From assembly GCA_020057295.1 (NCBI GenBank), contig JAGVGF010000006.1:64001-128000 (forward strand): a stretch of 64,000 bases of DNA. The letters run 5' to 3'. A program made the translations under genes and the position numbers. This document shows, piece by piece, positions 17,893 to 24,059 of the stretch. The notes under the pieces were generated by a model. That model was not told where the DNA came from. It did not search any database and worked only from the letters and a program-made list of their open reading frames with translations. Each line of letters starts with the position of its first letter. The stretch's first letter is position 1. This DNA comes from an archaeon (GTDB lineage Archaea; Nanobdellota; Nanobdellia; Woesearchaeales; UBA9642).

Positions 17893-19203
17893 ATGGCAAA
17901 GAATAAGGAACATATAAATCTTGTATTCGTAGGTCACGTAGATCACGGAAAATCAACTACTGTAGGTAGATTATTATACGATTCTGGTAATGTAGACGAA
18001 CAAGCAATGAGAAAATTAAAGGATAAGGCTCAAGAATTAGGAAAGGGCGGATTCGAATTTGCATTCGTTATGGATAATTTAAAGGAAGAACAAGAGAGAG
18101 GAGTTACAATTGACTTATCTCACAAGAAGTTCGAAACTGATAAATATTTCTTCACAATAATCGATGCTCCTGGACACAAGGACTTCGTTAAGAATATGAT
18201 TACTGGTGCATCCCAAGCAGATGCTGCAGTTTTAGTATGTGGTGCAAACGAGATTAAGGGAACTGAAGGAGTTACAGAATTACCACCACAAACAGTTGAA
18301 CACGCAAGATTAACAAAAATCTTAGGCGTAGGACAATTAATAGTTGCTGTAAATAAAATGGATATGCAGGGTTACTCACAAGAAAGATTTGAAGGAGTAA
18401 AGAAAGCAATCACAGCATTACTAAAGACTTCCGGTTGGAAAGTTGAAAATGTACAGTTTATAGCTATTGCATCATTACCTGGAGAAAATATTGTAAAAAA
18501 ATCCGATAAGATGCCATGGTATACTGGACCAACATTATTAGAAGCAATTAACAATTTAGCTGTTCCACAGAAACCAACTGATTTACCATTGAGATTACCA
18601 ATCCAAGATGTATATAACATCACAGGTATTGGTGTAGTCCCAGTAGGTAGAGTTGAAACTGGTGTAATTAAGGTTAACGATAAGGTTGTAGCAGTTCCAG
18701 GAAGAGAAGGTAAAGGAGTTCCTGGAGATGTAAAGACTGTCGAGATGCATCACGAGCAGATGCCAGAAGCAGGTCCTGGTGACAATGTCGGATTATCAAT
18801 CAGAGGATTTGGTAAGAAAGATGTTGCAAGAGGAGATGTTATTGGTCATGCTACTGATGTTCCAACTGTAGCAACAGAATTCACAGCACAGATTGTTGTT
18901 TTAAATCATCCAAGTGTAATAACTGTAGGTTATACTCCAGTATTTCACATACATACAGCACAGGTTGCATGTACAGTTTTGGAGATTGTTAAACAATTAA
19001 ATCCTATGACTGGTGAAACATTGAAGGAGCATCCAGACTTTATCAAGAATGGAGACGCAGCAATTGTAAAGTTCAAGCCAGTACAACCATTAGTAATTGA
19101 AACTCACAAGACAATACCACAAATGTCAAGATTTGCAATCAGAGATTCTGGTTCAACAGTAGCAGCTGGTATGTGTATTGAAGTTGTCAAGAAACAAATG
19201 TAA
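17893..19203 (+). CDS. tuf: Translation elongation factor EF-1alpha
   Basis: [29 protein letters not shown]. Confidence 0.98.
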
Positions 19204-20963: not shown

Positions 20964-22076
20964 TTATCTCACGCTAGTATATCCGCCCTTAATACCTTTC
21001 TTTGAGAATACTATCTGATATAATTGTATATTTCTACATCTAAACGAACCAGCGCAACTTAAAAGATAGTATCGCCACATACGATAAAATCTATCATCAT
21101 ATATCGGTTTTGTTCCTTTTAGTTCATGCCATGTTCTTTCAAAGTTTGCATGCCATCCCATCAATGTTTTATCATAATCAGCACCAAAATTGTGCCAGTC
21201 TTCAAGAGTAAAAAGTCCTTCAGCTGCTGCTGTAAGCTGTTTTGCTGATGGCAACATCGAATTAGGGAATATATACTTAGCAGTCCACGGTTCTGTAACA
21301 ACTACAGACTTATTTCCGGCAATAGTATGCAATAAGAATAATCCATGATCCTTCAAACATTTGTTTGCAAGCTCCATAAATGCTCGATAGTTCTTGTAAC
21401 CTATATGTTCACATAATCCTACAGATACTATACGATCAAACTGTCCGTGAGCTTCACGATAATCTGCTTCTATGAACGTTACAGGTAAACCTTTACACCA
21501 TTCTCTAGAATAAGCAATCTGTTCTTTACTAATATTGTAACTTACAACTTCACAACCGTATTCTTTTGCCATGAATCTTGCAAGTCCTCCGAATCCTCCT
21601 CCTAATTCAAGAACTCTCATTCCTTTTTTTAACTGAAGTTTTTCACATACTAATCTTAATTTTGCAACTTGTGCTTGATCTAATGTTTTTGCATTCTTCC
21701 AATATCCACAAGTGTACTGCATATTTTTGTCAAGCATTCTTGTGTACAATTCGTTTCCTAAATCGTAATGTTCCTGTGCTACAACTTTAGATTTAGATTT
21801 TGTTTGTTGATTAAACAATAACGATTTTATTGCTCCAGCCACAATTATTGTTTTTGAAACATGTTTATCTAATTCAGCATCTAATACTTTGTAGAAGAAT
21901 TGGTCTAAATCTTTTACATCCCACCAACCGTCCATATATGCTTCTCCAAGTCCTAAAGTACCTTGTGACAAAATTCTAGAGTATAAATTAGGATTATGTA
22001 CATGTATGTCCCACGTATTAGGACCATCAATTACGACTCCTGCATGATTCAACAATTTCTGTATTTTTTCTTTCAT
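20964..22076 (-). CDS. cfa: Cyclopropane-fatty-acyl-phospholipid synthase family SAM methyltransferase
   Basis: LGLGEAYMDGWW, HYDLGNELY, MQYTCGYW, KYIFP, RMWRYYLLSC; ATG at 22076 after GAGGT RBS. Confidence 0.93.
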   Translation of the reverse strand: MKEKIQKLLNHAGVVIDGPNTWDIHVHNPNLYSRILSQGTLGLGEAYMDGWWDVKDLDQFFYKVLDAELDKHVSKTIIVAGAIKSLLFNQQTKSKSKVVAQEHYDLGNELYTRMLDKNMQYTCGYWKNAKTLDQAQVAKLRLVCEKLQLKKGMRVLELGGGFGGLARFMAKEYGCEVVSYNISKEQIAYSREWCKGLPVTFIEADYREAHGQFDRIVSVGLCEHIGYKNYRAFMELANKCLKDHGLFLLHTIAGNKSVVVTEPWTAKYIFPNSMLPSAKQLTAAAEGLFTLEDWHNFGADYDKTLMGWHANFERTWHELKGTKPIYDDRFYRMWRYYLLSCAGSFRCRNIQLYQIVFSKKGIKGGYTSVR

Positions 22077-22144
22077 AATAAATACCTCGCATTTATTTTT
22101 TATATTTTTATTTCTTATATTTTGAATAATATCTGAGTTCAGAG

Positions 22145-23491
22145 TTATTTTCTCAAAACACATTTATCATACAAATTTTTAAATCTGTAATTAGCATCAT
22201 ATTTTTTCTTTAGTTTATCGTAAGTCTTTTTATTATATAACTCCCAAAATTTTTTCTCATCGTAATACGCTGTTGAATATAAAGATTTTTTTCCGCGGAG
22301 TTTCTCTACGATAAATTCTACTTTCTTGTTTAAGTATCCGTCTTCTTTACCTGTTTTTACTACATCCCAGAATCCAAAATTAATATATAATATTTCTGGT
22401 TTCATCACGTATAAATCGTATTTCGCTTTACCGTTAAGCGGTTGTGTTGGGCACATCCATACAGGAGCTATTCCTATCTCTTTTTGAAAAAAATCCAAAA
22501 ATTCTGGAGCGTTTGCTATAGGAATTTCTACATCTTGTATAACTGATTCTTTTTTTATTCCAAAAAATGCATCTATCTTTTCTAATATTTTAGTTTTTCC
22601 TGCAAATGCACGTATTTTCCAATAAGTTGTAGATTTCAAAAATTTCTTACCAACTAAAAATCTTACAATTTTATTTTGCACTCCAAAACTTGATGAACAC
22701 CAGAACCAGTCAGTATCCCATCTCCAGATATAATCTTTTATTGTTAAATAATCAGTAGTTTTTGTTTTTATCGATTTATAATAGATATTCATATAAGTAT
22801 AATCACTAACATAAGGAGCAGAGCTAACGCATTCTCCAATAGTTAGATACATTTCATTTTCACTAAATATAGATCCATCTACAAATGTCAAATCTTTTGA
22901 TTTTCTATATTTTTTACAATTAGAATTCACAGCATCAAAATAAGATTTAGAATTATCATATTTAGTGTGTGTTAACTTCACGTAAGGAAGTGTTTTTACA
23001 AGTTTGACTTTTAATCTTAATACATATCCAAATGTTCCGTAAGAGTTCGGAAATCCATAAAATAAATCTTTATATTTATTAGTTCTAGTGCATACGACTA
23101 TTCTTCCATCGCCAAGTAATAGTTCTAATTCTTCTATTGTTTCATGAACTAAGCCGTATTTGAATGATGAAGATTCAATCCCTCCACCAGTTGTTGCTCC
23201 TCCAATAGTTATGGATTTTAATTGTGGAACGACAGTCGGCATTAAACTATATTTTAGTGTCTCTTCTACTAATTCTTCGTACGTTGTCATTCCTTCTACA
23301 TCTGCTATAAGATTTTTTGAGTCAATATTAAGAACGTGATTAAAATTTTTTACATTAATCTTTTTTGCATTAACATCTCTGTGCCTAAACAGATTTGAAG
23401 TATCTTTCTGGAGAACAACTGCACCATCAATTGATTTAAATTCTTCTAATAGAATACGTTTACGTTCTTCAAAACCCCCATAACTATCCAT
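22145..23491 (-). CDS. FAD-binding oxidoreductase (PCMH fold; DHCR24/BfaA-TmsA-like)
   Basis: TSNLFR, VVPQLKSITIGGA..G.GIESSSF, FPNSYGT.GY, WRWDTDWFWCS, KSLYS. Confidence 0.88.
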   Translation of the reverse strand: MDSYGGFEERKRILLEEFKSIDGAVVLQKDTSNLFRHRDVNAKKINVKNFNHVLNIDSKNLIADVEGMTTYEELVEETLKYSLMPTVVPQLKSITIGGATTGGGIESSSFKYGLVHETIEELELLLGDGRIVVCTRTNKYKDLFYGFPNSYGTFGYVLRLKVKLVKTLPYVKLTHTKYDNSKSYFDAVNSNCKKYRKSKDLTFVDGSIFSENEMYLTIGECVSSAPYVSDYTYMNIYYKSIKTKTTDYLTIKDYIWRWDTDWFWCSSSFGVQNKIVRFLVGKKFLKSTTYWKIRAFAGKTKILEKIDAFFGIKKESVIQDVEIPIANAPEFLDFFQKEIGIAPVWMCPTQPLNGKAKYDLYVMKPEILYINFGFWDVVKTGKEDGYLNKKVEFIVEKLRGKKSLYSTAYYDEKKFWELYNKKTYDKLKKKYDANYRFKNLYDKCVLRK

Positions 23492-23542
23492 GAAATTATC
23501 AATAATAATGCTTTTAAAAAGGTTGCTAAAATGAAAGTATAA

Positions 23543-23667
23543 CGCCGACGCCCAGATTTGAACTGGGAAACCTTTCGGAAATGGTTCTTTTGGGCGAAAG
23601 ACCAAAAGTTTCGAAATAGCATTTCGCCATTCGAGACCATCGCAGTACCAGATTGTGCCACGCCGGC
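23543..23667 (-). tRNA. tRNA-Ser(CGA) with 43-nt intron at 37/38 (23587-23629)
   Basis: Acceptor GCCGGCG/CGTCGGC; ATGGT-CT-CGA-A|intron|A-ACCAT; long variable arm; D, variable and T arms identical to the tRNA-Ser at 30161. Confidence 0.9.
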
Positions 23668-23758
23668 ATAGTATATGAGATAGATAACATCTTATAAATT
23701 TTCTCGAAAAATATATAAAACAGCATTGGTTTCAAAAAGTATACTTGGAGGATTAAGA

Positions 23759-24001
23759 ATGGATGATATAGAACCTTACGATCACTTAAGAACAATATTA
23801 AGAGCAGAAGGATTCATGGCAGAAATATATAGAAGTACTAAAGGAATATATTTAGGAATACCTGTAGAGCAAATAGCTCAAGATAAAAATAAACAAAGCA
23901 TGGTTAAAGAAGCAATGGATAGAATTGCTGATGATTTAGGATTACATCCAGAAACTCATATATGTCAACACAGAATACAAATAAAATATTCTTTACTATA
24001 A
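23759..24001 (+). CDS. Hypothetical protein
   Basis: ORF with GGAGG RBS. Confidence 0.65.
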   Translation: MDDIEPYDHLRTILRAEGFMAEIYRSTKGIYLGIPVEQIAQDKNKQSMVKEAMDRIADDLGLHPETHICQHRIQIKYSLL

Positions 24002-24059
24002 ATATGCGGCAGCTAGAACATATCGATAATTTTTTATAGACATAATATTCTCTAAATGT

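What the first reader, a model, noticed from the sequence alone, without database searches (positions are those of the whole stretch)
20964..23491. Bacterial fatty-acyl modification module (cfa plus FAD oxidoreductase, BfaAB/TmsAB-like) in an archaeon
Seen: two adjacent co-oriented genes, a Cfa-family SAM methyltransferase and a PCMH-fold FAD enzyme with the WRWDTDWFWCS motif, directly 3' of tRNA-Ser(CGA). Established: in Actinobacteria this pairing (BfaA/BfaB, TmsA/TmsB) methylenates and then reduces oleoyl phospholipid to 10-methylstearate. Archaea use isoprenoid ether lipids, and many DPANN lack lipid synthesis. Inference: this organism may remodel unsaturated acyl phospholipids taken from a bacterial or eukaryotic host or from the environment, which would imply a partly non-archaeal membrane or a non-archaeal partner.
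Basis: partly seen in the sequence, partly recalled or inferred. Interest (0 to 1): 0.85.

Follow-up and report, generated by a model that had tools for sequence, protein, structure and literature searches.

The report
Fatty-acid methyl-branching gene pair in archaeon
A tiny symbiotic archaeon that cannot make any membrane lipids carries a working copy of a bacterial two-gene set that puts methyl branches on unsaturated fatty acids, which suggests that it lives on, and tailors, fatty-acid lipids taken from bacteria.

Summary
On the minus strand lie an intron-bearing tRNA-Ser(CGA) (23542-23668), a 448-aa PCMH/VAO-fold FAD protein (23491-22145) and a Cfa-family methyltransferase (22076-20964; the frame is open from 22163). 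The contig is from a Woesearchaeota-type DPANN archaeon and the genes are not contamination.

The FAD protein belongs to the BfaA family. It is 41-50% identical over its full length to actinobacterial proteins in bfaAB operons. It keeps all 33 invariant residues of the family. Relatives sit next to a Cfa homolog in 71 of 80 bacterial loci, and natural FAD-Cfa fusions exist.

The methyltransferase is not actinobacterial BfaB (28-31% identity). It is E. coli-type (51%; NCBIfam Cfa equivalog). It branches outside the clade that holds E. coli Cfa and groups with FAD-linked Cfas of Acidobacteria and Nitrospira.

In 401 genomes of the phylum, Cfa occurs in 44 and the pair in 10.

The genome lacks the archaeal phospholipid genes and the fatty-acid synthesis genes that I searched for. 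It does have a PlsC-type acyltransferase and a murein lytic transglycosylase.

Best reading: two-step methyl-branching of scavenged unsaturated acyl phospholipids. The product and the substrate are inferred, not shown. Cfa in Woesearchaeota and the lipid-scavenging idea are already in print. The reductase partner appears to be new.

The parts
23542..23668 (-). tRNA-Ser(CGA) with a 43-nt intron in the anticodon loop, directly upstream of the FAD gene
   Evidence: aragorn -i. Missed by default ARAGORN and by Rfam at gathering threshold. The congener G177 also has tRNA-Ser(CGA), without an intron, directly upstream of its FAD gene.
23512..23520 (-). TATA-like TTTTTAAAA centred about 25 nt before the FAD start codon. 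This is a possible archaeal promoter for a leaderless transcript (inference).
   Evidence: Read from the sequence. Not tested.
22145..23491 (-). BfaA-family FAD-dependent oxidoreductase, 448 aa, PCMH/VAO fold. Predicted reductase of the exomethylene intermediate.
   Evidence: PF01565. 45-58% identical to 80 bacterial loci, including 34 actinobacterial ones. 41% identical over 99% of its length to the Tsukamurella FAD-binding oxidoreductase, which sits in the bfaAB context. Keeps 33 of 33 invariant and 58 of 58 columns conserved at 95% or more. Model pLDDT 91.2; best solved folds are cytokinin dehydrogenase and DprE1, TM 0.63-0.69. No hydrophobic segment: maximum KD19 0.88.
22085..22089 (-). 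Shine-Dalgarno-like GAGGT, 8 nt before the Cfa ATG at 22076
   Evidence: Read from the sequence. Not tested.
20964..22076 (-). Cfa-family SAM-dependent methyltransferase, 370 aa from M30 (the frame is open from 22163). Predicted to methylate or methylenate a cis double bond of a phospholipid acyl chain.
   Evidence: PF02353 at 7.8e-76. NCBIfam PRK11705 at 557 bits, cut-off 400. E. coli Cfa structure 6bqc at E 1.1e-123; 51% identity to E. coli K-12 Cfa. Catalytic and bicarbonate residues are kept: C152, E252, H279, I281, Y330. Lies outside the E. coli Cfa clade, among FAD-linked Cfas.

Best explanation
The two genes form a horizontally acquired, now fully domesticated, bacterial-type operon for mid-chain methyl-branching of fatty acyl chains. 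It is a BfaAB-like pathway.

Step 1 (inferred from family membership): the soluble Cfa-family enzyme transfers the methyl carbon of SAM to a cis double bond of an unsaturated acyl chain that is already esterified in a membrane phospholipid. This gives an exomethylene intermediate.

Step 2 (inferred from the BfaA family): the FAD enzyme reduces the methylene group with NAD(P)H to a saturated methyl branch. The product would be of the 10- or 11-methyl-16:0/18:0 type.

Substrate source: both proteins lack signal peptides and membrane segments. In the genome I found none of the following: fatty-acid synthase (KAS), desaturase, GGGP synthase, CarS, CdsA, CDP-alcohol phosphatidyltransferase. The substrate must therefore be unsaturated acyl phospholipid that the archaeon has taken into its own membrane from a partner, most likely a bacterium.

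Shown: the identity, intactness, conservation, genomic integration and distribution of the genes.

Inferred: the product (methyl branch rather than cyclopropane ring), the substrate, and the origin of that substrate.
For: Gene identity.

Functional coupling of the two genes:
- A CMAS homolog lies beside the FAD gene in 71 of 80 bacterial loci (70 on the same strand) across at least 7 phyla, although the Cfa partner belongs to three separate lineages.
- All 10 of 10 archaeal genomes with a close FAD homolog have Cfa adjacent.
- 5 of 7 longer homologs are natural fusions carrying both PF01565 and PF02353.

Experimental precedent: co-expression of bfaA and bfaB gives 10-methylstearate via a 10-methylene intermediate (PMC5660069 passages; PMC7791843 abstract and passages).

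Placement of the window's Cfa:
- It falls outside the clade of E. coli Cfa plus 16 FAD-less archaeal Cfas (SH-aLRT 97, 96).
- It groups with FAD-linked Cfas of Acidobacteria and lies near those of Nitrospira.
- Nitrospira is reported to make 11-methyl-hexadecanoic acid (review PMC5516240, passages).
- Among archaeal rows only, 10 of 14 in that group are FAD-paired against 0 of 16 in the E. coli clade.

Intactness:
- The FAD protein keeps 33 of 33 invariant residues.
- The Cfa catalytic residues are kept.
- GC3 matches that of the neighbours.
- The pair occupies the same slot (EEP gene - Cfa - FAD - tRNA-Ser - HGPRT) in congener G177, at 83% and 72% amino-acid identity.

Dependence on foreign lipid. 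The own genome is rated 100% complete, and the control genomes gave the expected hits in each search:
- Not found: GGGPS, CarS, CDP-OH phosphatidyltransferase, KAS, desaturase, CdsA, GpsA.
- The single UbiA protein is not DGGGPS (30 bits, cut-off 296).
- A PlsC-type acyltransferase is present.
- An SLT murein transglycosylase domain is present.
- In the control genomes both of these families gave hits only in bacteria.
Against: - No chemistry was or could be tested. No sequence feature was found that distinguishes methylene-forming from cyclopropane-forming Cfas. Only 4 columns separate the two E. coli-type groups (Ec G116A, D173E, I174L, T197N), and none is shared with all FAD-linked lineages.
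- The Cfa passes NCBI's equivalog cut-off for a true cyclopropane synthase.
- Three Patescibacteria FAD-linked Cfas (L002, L022, L063) fall inside the E. coli clade, so clade does not predict pairing perfectly.
- 9 of 80 bacterial FAD genes have no Cfa neighbour.
- The bacterial loci were selected through the FAD gene, so their pairing rate is not an unbiased figure for Cfa.
- All trees are quick searches with SH-aLRT support only. The careful search did not finish.
- The window's FAD protein is not inside the actinobacterial clade that contains the positional bfaA orthologs.
- Presence of Cfa does not go with PlsC in the phylum: 11 of 44 Cfa-positive genomes have PlsC against 118 of 357 Cfa-negative ones.
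- Absence of lipid genes is phylum-wide (GGGPS is convincing in 2 of 401), so it does not single out this genome.
- The host is unknown.
Confidence: 0.55

Rival explanations
1. The Cfa is an ordinary cyclopropane fatty-acyl phospholipid synthase like that of E. coli. The neighbouring FAD protein has a different role or none in this reaction, for example oxidation or further conversion of another lipid. The archaeon would then cyclopropanate scavenged acyl lipids rather than methyl-branch them.
For: The Cfa scores 557 bits against the Cfa equivalog, cut-off 400. It is 51% identical to E. coli Cfa. All bicarbonate and catalytic residues are kept. 34 of the 44 Cfa-positive genomes of the phylum carry Cfa without the FAD gene. 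The literature annotates these genes as cyclopropane synthases.
Against: The FAD and Cfa genes are strongly and repeatedly linked across phyla, and natural fusions exist. The FAD family is the one shown experimentally to reduce the methylene product. The window's Cfa lies outside the E. coli clade, with FAD-linked Cfas. BfaB enzymes also keep the bicarbonate site (passage of PMC7791843).
Confidence: 0.22
2. The pair acts on a non-acyl alkene of archaeal origin, for example unsaturated isoprenoid chains of scavenged archaeol or of polyprenyl carriers. It would add and reduce a methyl branch there, so no bacterial-type lipid is implied.
For: The organism is an archaeon. It has a polyprenyl synthase and a UbiA prenyltransferase. 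The nearest named Atlas cluster besides actinobacterial ones is 'Delta(24)-sterol reductase family' (score 0.98, automatic name). That family reduces isoprenoid-derived double bonds (this last point is recalled).
Against: The proteins are 53-61% identical to Cfas and 52-58% identical to FAD proteins of bacteria that have acyl lipids. The Cfa has the full-length E. coli-type architecture, including the N-terminal domain. No example of a Cfa-family enzyme acting on isoprenoid chains came up in any call.
Confidence: 0.1
3. The genes are a recently acquired, unexpressed or decaying passenger with no present function.
For: The distribution is patchy. The pair was found in 10 of 401 genomes of the phylum, and in only 1 of 9 other genomes of the genus in the FAD search. 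It lies next to a tRNA gene, which is a common insertion site.
Against: Both frames are intact and every invariant residue is kept. The composition is fully ameliorated: GC3 19-24% against 14-31% for the neighbours. The pair is conserved in synteny in a second species at 72% and 83% identity. Plausible host-type expression signals are present.
Confidence: 0.08
4. The region is bacterial contamination or a chimeric assembly.
For: The genes are of bacterial type and bacteria are their closest named carriers.
Against: The pair is embedded in a 243-kb contig between archaeal EF-1 alpha/S10 and an intron-bearing tRNA. GC and GC3 equal those of the genome. Contigs of a related strain (85-97% alike) in a groundwater run bridge the EEP-Cfa junction and link the FAD 5' end to the HGPRT gene. 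That run may belong to the same study as the window, so it is not certain to be independent. The same arrangement is seen in congener G177.
Confidence: 0.02

Closest known systems
BfaA/BfaB (formerly TmsA/TmsB) of Actinomycetota: 10-methylstearate (tuberculostearic acid) synthesis; Machida 2017 (PMC5660069), Blitzblau 2021 (PMC7791843)
   Same: Both have a two-gene operon with the FAD gene upstream of the Cfa-family gene, in the same order as in the window. The FAD protein belongs to the same family, at 41-50% identity over its full length with all family-invariant residues kept. The methyltransferase has the CMAS domain with the bicarbonate site kept.
   Different: The window's methyltransferase is only 28-31% identical to the actinobacterial BfaB-type partners and forms a separate lineage. 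The window's FAD protein branches outside the actinobacterial clade. The spacer is 68 nt rather than a 4-bp overlap. The host is an archaeon without fatty-acid synthesis.
E. coli Cfa (cyclopropane fatty acyl phospholipid synthase, PDB 6bqc)
   Same: 51% identity over the full length. The window's protein passes the NCBIfam equivalog cut-off and keeps the catalytic residues.
   Different: E. coli cfa has no FAD-enzyme neighbour. The window's Cfa lies outside the clade holding E. coli Cfa and carries E instead of D at Ec173 and N instead of T at Ec197.
Cfa->FAD pairs of Acidobacteria, Nitrospira and Verrucomicrobia (uncharacterised; Nitrospira makes 11-methyl-16:0)
   Same: These are the closest bacterial relatives of the window's Cfa (53-59% identity) and are paired with the same FAD family.
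   Different: The gene order is reversed (Cfa first). None has been characterised. The link to 11-methyl-16:0 is a correlation taken from a review.
TmpB/TmpA of Desulfobacteraceae, Marinobacter and Thiohalospira (10-methylpalmitate)
   Same: A Cfa-family methylenating enzyme next to a flavoprotein.
   Different: TmpA is a geranylgeranyl-reductase-like flavoprotein, not homologous to BfaA (PMC7791843). The window's protein is PF01565.
Cfa genes reported in Woesearchaeota MAGs (Zhang 2024, PMC10936187)
   Same: An E. coli-type cfa in DPANN archaea of the same lineage. I found it in 44 of 401 genomes.
   Different: In the passages I read, that report mentions no FAD partner and interprets the gene as a cyclopropane synthase.

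Membership tests
BfaA (FAD-binding oxidoreductase of 10-methyl fatty acid synthesis) | N-terminal PCMH-type FAD-binding domain (PF01565) in a two-domain VAO-fold protein of about 450-470 aa | tested here: met
   PF01565 at E 8.6e-15. Model pLDDT 91.2; whole-length fold matches to cytokinin dehydrogenase and DprE1.
BfaA (FAD-binding oxidoreductase of 10-methyl fatty acid synthesis) | Full-length homology to actinobacterial proteins encoded in bfaAB operons | tested here: met
   45-50% identity to 34 actinobacterial loci. 41% identity over 99% of the length to the Tsukamurella protein, whose context (RecR, YbaB, amidase, SRPBCC, FAD oxidoreductase, SAM methyltransferase, DnaX) equals that in the Fig. 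2 legend of PMC5660069. The characterised M. chlorophenolicum and T. curvata proteins themselves could not be fetched.
BfaA (FAD-binding oxidoreductase of 10-methyl fatty acid synthesis) | Co-oriented neighbour of a Cfa-family methyltransferase | tested here: met
   The same holds in 70 of 80 bacterial loci and 10 of 10 archaeal genomes.
BfaA (FAD-binding oxidoreductase of 10-methyl fatty acid synthesis) | Branches within the clade of characterised (actinobacterial) BfaA | tested here: not met
   The actinobacterial rows form one clade (34 rows, SH-aLRT 100) that excludes the window. The window belongs to a sister lineage of the same family.
BfaA (FAD-binding oxidoreductase of 10-methyl fatty acid synthesis) | NADPH-dependent reduction of the 10-methylene acyl chain | not testable with these tools
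   Needs an enzyme assay or heterologous expression.
BfaB (actinobacterial methylenating Cfa homolog) | Membership of the actinobacterial BfaB lineage | tested here: not met
   28-31% identity. The actinobacterial partners form a separate clade (33 rows, SH-aLRT 100).
BfaB (actinobacterial methylenating Cfa homolog) | CMAS domain with a conserved bicarbonate site, next to bfaA | tested here: met
   The residue list is recalled; the letters were verified on E. coli K-12 Cfa.
Cfa, E. coli type (NCBIfam PRK11705 equivalog) | Score above the curated equivalog cut-off | tested here: met
   557.4 bits against a cut-off of 400.
Cfa, E. coli type (NCBIfam PRK11705 equivalog) | Groups with E. coli Cfa in a tree | tested here: not met
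   Outside the 20-row clade that holds E. coli Cfa (SH-aLRT 97). These are quick trees only.
Cfa, E. coli type (NCBIfam PRK11705 equivalog) | Product is a cyclopropane ring | not testable with these tools
   No diagnostic residue was found.
TmpA/TmpB (10-methylpalmitate system) | Reductase is a geranylgeranyl-reductase-like flavoprotein | tested here: not met
   The window's flavoprotein is PF01565. The definition of TmpA comes from PMC7791843.

The most novel reading that the evidence does not exclude
This Woesearchaeota-type archaeon, and roughly a tenth of its phylum that carries cfa, builds its cell membrane from bacterial-type ester-linked fatty-acyl phospholipids taken from bacterial hosts. 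It then chemically tailors these lipids itself. Here the tailoring converts unsaturated chains into oxidation-resistant mid-chain methyl-branched chains. Such an organism would be an archaeon living on the 'wrong' side of the lipid divide with its own lipid signature. The same toolkit is shared by horizontal transfer with Patescibacteria, which face the same problem.
Probability: 0.4. Interest if true: 0.8.

Novelty: new member of a known kind. Interest (0 to 1): 0.5.

Why it matters
If the pair works as predicted, it is direct genetic evidence that some DPANN archaea hold unsaturated fatty-acyl phospholipids in their own membranes. The enzymes are cytoplasmic and can only act on such lipids there. 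It would also show that these archaea remodel the lipids rather than merely borrow them.

This makes the 'do DPANN have bacterial-type membranes?' question testable. The tests are to express the two genes, then to look for 10- or 11-methyl fatty acids in small-cell fractions.

It also matters for biomarker work. Mid-chain methyl fatty acids are used as markers of actinomycetes and sulfate reducers (recalled). The FAD+Cfa pair is far more widespread than that, occurring in Acidobacteria, Nitrospira, beta-proteobacteria, Patescibacteria and DPANN.

The general idea and the presence of cfa in Woesearchaeota are already in print, so the advance is incremental. It consists of the reductase partner, its distribution, and a sharper product prediction.

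Tried and rejected
- Association tests in the phylum gave nothing. GGGPS is missing almost everywhere (26 of 401 with any match, only 2 convincing), so it cannot discriminate. PlsC-type acyltransferase is present in 129 of 401 and is not enriched in Cfa-positive genomes (11 of 44 against 118 of 357).
- A search for sequence determinants of product outcome gave four clade-specific columns and no convincing signature.
- The careful (bootstrap) Cfa tree did not finish in two 300-s runs on one CPU. Only quick trees are reported.
- A literature search linking 10-methyl fatty acids to Usitatibacter, Casimicrobium, Pelomicrobium, Bryobacter or Solibacter returned only community surveys.
- I looked for an 'empty site' in genus mates with the HGPRT gene as anchor. 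Only G177 (same arrangement) and G403 (no shared flanks) have that gene, so no insertion boundary could be defined.
- Expression: no RNA holder was listed for the stretch. This says nothing either way. The single DNA run, X1, held 0.19 of the words. One 187-nt bin (23688-23874) had no cover, and the contig that links the FAD gene to HGPRT skips 23531-23630 and 23660-24019.
- The weaker archaeal FAD_binding_4 relatives (32-36% identity, 7 genomes) are not next to Cfa and have no constant neighbour. I treated them as a paralogous family and used them only as an outgroup.
- Supplements were closed. Additional files 1 and 3 of PMC7791843 (gene lists and sequences) and the supplementary alignments of PMC5660069 were not seen. 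They would have allowed a direct comparison with the characterised proteins.
- Searches for prior reports of the FAD partner in archaea used 'tmsA/tmsB/10-methyl', 'DPANN + cyclopropane' and 'tuberculostearic acid/BfaA/BfaB'. None of the listed papers links BfaA to DPANN or CPR. This covers only the held library.

Unpublished genomes:
- The tally 44 of 401 includes G395.
- The tally 129 of 401 includes G243, G359, G242, G395 and G332.
- The tally 26 of 401 includes G243.
- G395 was left out of the trees, and no conclusion rests on any of these genomes.

Rows dropped from the Cfa tree:
- G395.
- The 13 other Cfa-positive genomes for which one search returned no locus: G090, G353, G094, G064, G328, G236, G399, G093, G254, G217, G076, G160, G194.
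- Bacterial Cfa hits shorter than 200 aa: L011, L036, L053.

Rows dropped: the partial row L002_c2 was left out, and only 5 of the beta-proteobacterial rows were kept, as the outgroup.


Full report
WHAT IS THERE. The window is G000:C3:64001-128000, part of a 243-kb contig. The genome is 1.20 Mb in 6 contigs and is rated 100% complete and 0.46% contaminated. Three features lie on the minus strand:
- a tRNA-Ser(CGA) at 23542-23668 with a 43-nt intron. It was found only by aragorn with the intron option and was missed by default ARAGORN and by Rfam;
- 50 nt further on, a 448-aa ORF at 23491-22145 with a PF01565 FAD_binding_4 domain;
- a Cfa-family ORF that ends at 20964 (PF02353, E 7.8e-76).

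The Cfa frame is open from 22163. Homologs align from the ATG at 22076, and a GAGGT lies 8 nt upstream of it. I therefore take 22076 as the start, which leaves a 68-nt spacer. A TTTTTAAAA lies about 25 nt before the FAD start codon. This is a possible archaeal TATA box for a leaderless mRNA; that reading is an inference.

THE ORGANISM AND THE ASSEMBLY.
- EF-1 alpha (17893-19203) passes the archaeal/eukaryotic equivalog cut-off (650 bits against 540).
- Every named protein among its 120 best relatives is from Woesearchaeota, Nanoarchaeia, Nanoarchaeota or 'archaeon'. The best named one is 87% identical.
- GC is flat at about 30% across the window.
- The two genes have GC3 of 19% and 24%, within the 14-31% range of their neighbours. 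Genome GC is 31.0%.
- A second species of the same genus (G177) has the same arrangement: EEP-family gene, Cfa (83% identical), FAD (72%), tRNA-Ser(CGA), HGPRT-like gene.
- Logan contigs of a groundwater run hold a related strain, 85-97% alike. One contig bridges the EEP gene and the 3' end of Cfa. Another joins the 5' end of the FAD gene to the HGPRT gene. That run may come from the same study as the window, so I count it as weak support.

Contamination or chimerism is very unlikely.

THE FAD PROTEIN IS A BfaA-FAMILY ENZYME.
- It has more than 8000 relatives in the protein collection. The best 120 are all at least 52% identical. The named ones come from Nanoarchaeota, Woesearchaeota, Patescibacteria, Legionella and Gammaproteobacteria.
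- A scan of species genomes gave 579 relatives. The best 80 loci (45-58% identity, nearly full length) include 34 from Actinomycetota, among them Amycolatopsis, Prauserella, Nonomuraea, Actinomadura and Mycobacteriales.
- In the plasmid collection the protein matches a Tsukamurella 'FAD-binding oxidoreductase' at 41% identity over 99% of its length.
- That Tsukamurella gene has this context: RecR, YbaB/EbfC, amidase, SRPBCC protein, FAD oxidoreductase, SAM methyltransferase, DNA polymerase III. This is the context listed for bfaAB orthologs in the Fig. 2 legend of Machida et al. 2017 (PMC5660069, passages read).
- That paper, and Blitzblau et al. 2021 (PMC7791843, abstract and passages), show that co-expressing bfaA and bfaB in E. 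coli or yeast converts oleate to 10-methylstearate through a 10-methylene intermediate.
- The window's protein keeps 33 of 33 invariant columns, and 58 of 58 columns conserved at 95% or more, in an 89-row alignment.
- Its AlphaFold model (pLDDT 91.2, pTM 0.90) matches cytokinin dehydrogenases and DprE1 over its whole length (TM 0.63-0.69). It is therefore a two-domain VAO/PCMH flavoenzyme. No closer solved structure exists.
- The protein Atlas lists actinobacterial 'FAD-binding oxidoreductase' clusters and a 'Delta(24)-sterol reductase family' cluster as nearest. The names are automatic, so this is only a lead.

THE PAIRING IS THE CONSERVED UNIT.
- Among the 80 bacterial loci a CMAS homolog lies beside the FAD gene in 71. 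It is on the same strand in 70 and on the opposite strand in L034. It is absent from 9 loci, all gamma-proteobacterial or unclassified Pseudomonadota. In four of these nine (L003, L026, L043, L080) I checked the flanking genes, and they are unrelated: gamma-glutamyltranspeptidase, ABC transporter, dynamin, FMN reductase.
- The order is FAD then Cfa in 33 actinobacterial and 3 Patescibacteria loci. It is Cfa then FAD in 14 beta-proteobacterial, 6 acidobacterial, 3 Nitrospira and several other loci.
- Five of the seven longer homologs found are natural fusions carrying both PF01565 and PF02353.
- In 401 genomes of the window's phylum the FAD protein has a close relative (41-72% identity) in 10, G000 included. 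All 10 have Cfa adjacent.

The bacterial loci were picked through the FAD gene. The figure therefore says that BfaA-like genes nearly always have a Cfa partner, not the reverse.

THE METHYLTRANSFERASE IS E. COLI-TYPE BUT NOT IN THE E. COLI CLADE.
- It scores 557 bits on the NCBIfam Cfa equivalog, cut-off 400.
- It matches the E. coli Cfa structure 6bqc at E 1.1e-123.
- It is 51% identical to E. coli K-12 Cfa.
- The residues I recall as the bicarbonate and catalytic site of E. coli Cfa are C139, E239, H266, I268 and Y317; I verified the letters on the K-12 sequence. They are kept in the window (C152, E252, H279, I281, Y330) and in every group examined.
- In a 100-row tree the FAD-linked Cfas fall into three lineages: actinobacterial (33 rows, support 100), beta-proteobacterial (17 rows) and E. 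coli-type (50 rows).
- Within the E. coli-type lineage, one clade of 20 rows (support 97) holds E. coli Cfa, 16 archaeal Cfas from genomes without the FAD gene, and 3 Patescibacteria Cfas.
- The window, all 9 other FAD-paired archaeal Cfas, the acidobacterial, Nitrospira and verrucomicrobial FAD-linked Cfas, and 4 FAD-less archaeal Cfas lie outside that clade (27 rows, support 98).
- A mixture-model tree of 54 rows again recovers the E. coli clade (96). It places the window with G177, G339, G292 and six acidobacterial rows. Rooted on the beta group, the FAD-linked rows form a basal grade.
- Counting archaeal rows only, which were sampled through Cfa and not through the FAD gene, 10 of 14 outside the E. 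coli clade are FAD-paired against 0 of 16 inside it. These rows are related to one another, so this is a description and not a test.
- Exceptions: L022, L063 and L002 (Patescibacteria) have a FAD gene next to an E. coli-clade Cfa. L002 carries Cfa (window-like, partial) - FAD - Cfa (E. coli clade) in a row.
- Only four columns separate the two groups (Ec G116A, D173E, I174L, T197N), and none marks all FAD-linked lineages. Sequence alone therefore does not tell the product.
- Nitrospira, whose genomes carry the window-like Cfa plus the FAD gene, is reported to make 11-methyl-hexadecanoic acid (review PMC5516240, passages). This is a supportive correlation, not a demonstration.

ORIGIN.
- In the FAD tree (98 rows, quick) the actinobacterial sequences form one clade (support 100) that excludes the window.
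- The window, G177 and G339 form a clade (99).
- Archaeal sequences occur in at least two or three places and are mixed with Patescibacteria.
- Both gene orders occur among archaea: FAD first in G000, G177 and G339, and Cfa first in the other seven.
- Within the window's genus, 4 of 9 other genomes have a Cfa. Three of those are of the E. coli clade and lack the FAD gene.

The pattern fits several transfers between bacteria (including CPR) and DPANN, followed by vertical descent in small groups. No donor can be named. Actinobacteria are not the source.

WHAT THE GENOME CAN AND CANNOT DO WITH LIPIDS. I ran family searches of the own genome. Each was checked on 14 control genomes, which gave the expected hits.
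- Not found: GGGP synthase, CarS, CDP-alcohol phosphatidyltransferase, ketoacyl synthase, fatty-acid desaturase, CdsA, GpsA.
- Found: one polyprenyl synthase. One UbiA-family protein, which is not DGGGP synthase (30 bits against a cut-off of 296). A 350-aa PlsC/PlsB-type acyltransferase with the FPEGTR block (30.5 bits, Pfam cut-off 23). An SLT lytic-transglycosylase domain (43 bits).
- In the controls the last two families gave hits only in bacteria.
- Castelle et al. 2021 (PMC8204110, abstract and passages) read such transglycosylases in Woesearchaeota and Pacearchaeota as a sign of bacterial hosts.
- Neither the FAD protein nor the Cfa has a hydrophobic segment or signal-like N-terminus (maximum KD19 0.88 and 0.83). 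They should act from the cytoplasm on the cell's own membrane.

These absences are phylum-wide and known from the literature. They fit the explanation but are not specific to this genome. Presence of PlsC does not correlate with presence of Cfa.

MECHANISM PROPOSED. The cell takes up monounsaturated acyl phospholipids from a partner. Cfa methylates the cis double bond using SAM. The carbocation is resolved to an exomethylene. The BfaA-like flavoenzyme reduces this to a methyl branch. The result is a fully saturated chain that stays fluid at low temperature. A cell that cannot desaturate, elongate or synthesise acyl chains, and cannot otherwise repair or tune the lipids it receives, would gain a way to adjust them. 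The first and last parts (uptake, benefit) are inference. The two chemical steps are inferred from homology to tested enzymes and from the conserved pairing. Confidence is about 0.55. The main rival (0.22) is that the Cfa simply makes cyclopropane rings.

COMPARISON AND NOVELTY.
- Zhang et al. 2024 (PMC10936187, passages) reported cfa in five Woesearchaeota MAGs as new for archaea.
- My searches for bfaA/bfaB, tmsA/tmsB or tuberculostearic acid together with DPANN found no report of the reductase partner in archaea or CPR. These searches cover the held library only.
- The finding is therefore a new member of a known kind: a BfaAB-like pair with an E. coli-type methyltransferase, in a DPANN archaeon. 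It comes with a sharper and testable product prediction and a quantified distribution: Cfa in 44 of 401 genomes and the pair in 10 of 401.
- Interest is moderate. A lipid-divide specialist would find it useful rather than startling.

LIMITS.
- No experiment could be run.
- All trees are quick searches (SH-aLRT only). The careful search did not finish.
The supplements are closed and I used no sequence from memory. The link to them therefore runs through positional orthologs.
- The tallies include a few unpublished genomes (listed under Tried and rejected). None carries a conclusion.

Noticed in passing
window 23542-23668 (-): The tRNA-Ser(CGA) carries a 43-nt intron. Default ARAGORN and Rfam at gathering threshold both missed it. 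The congener G177 has the same tRNA without an intron, followed by an intron-bearing tRNA-Gly(CCC).
   Followed up: partly
G000:C6:25170-26222 (L131:1303-2355), outside the window: A 350-aa PlsC/PlsB-type glycerolipid acyltransferase (PF01553, 30.5 bits) with an FPEGTR block but an H-x4-E in place of the usual H-x4-D. It is followed by a PIG-L family deacetylase. The family is present in 129 of 401 genomes of this archaeal phylum, and among the controls only in bacteria.
   Followed up: partly
G000:C5:31487-32014 (L135/L136), outside the window: An SLT (murein lytic transglycosylase) domain in a 342-aa open frame of this archaeon. Among the controls the family is found only in bacteria. It fits a bacterial host.
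   Followed up: no
L091-L098 (G162, G246, G294, G371, G031, G251, G093, G079): A second, more distant family of FAD_binding_4 proteins (32-36% identical to the window's) occurs in 7 further genomes of the phylum and as a second copy in G079. It is not next to Cfa and has no constant neighbour (PIN/RHH, GDT1 and nucleotidyltransferase were seen).
   Followed up: partly
L002:7-3135 (Saccharibacteria MAG contig): Three genes in a row: a window-like Cfa (partial, 61% identical), the FAD gene (58%) and an E. coli-clade Cfa. This organism may make both methyl-branched and cyclopropane chains.
   Followed up: partly
P0241, P0243-P0246: Natural single-chain fusions of the FAD_binding_4 and CMAS domains (851-1116 aa), 46-47% identical to the window's FAD protein. 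Their organisms are not named.
   Followed up: no
window 23726-24001 (+): A 91-aa ORF without a Pfam match lies between the tRNA and the HGPRT-like gene. The related strain's contig in run X1 skips 23660-24019, and G177 has a tRNA-Gly there instead, so this spacer is variable.
   Followed up: no
L003, L010, L019, L026, L039, L043, L045, L066, L080: A gamma-proteobacterial subgroup of the FAD family stands without a Cfa neighbour (neighbours seen: gamma-glutamyltranspeptidase, ABC transporter, dynamin-like GTPase, FMN reductase). Its partner methyltransferase may be elsewhere in the genome, or it may have another substrate.
   Followed up: partly
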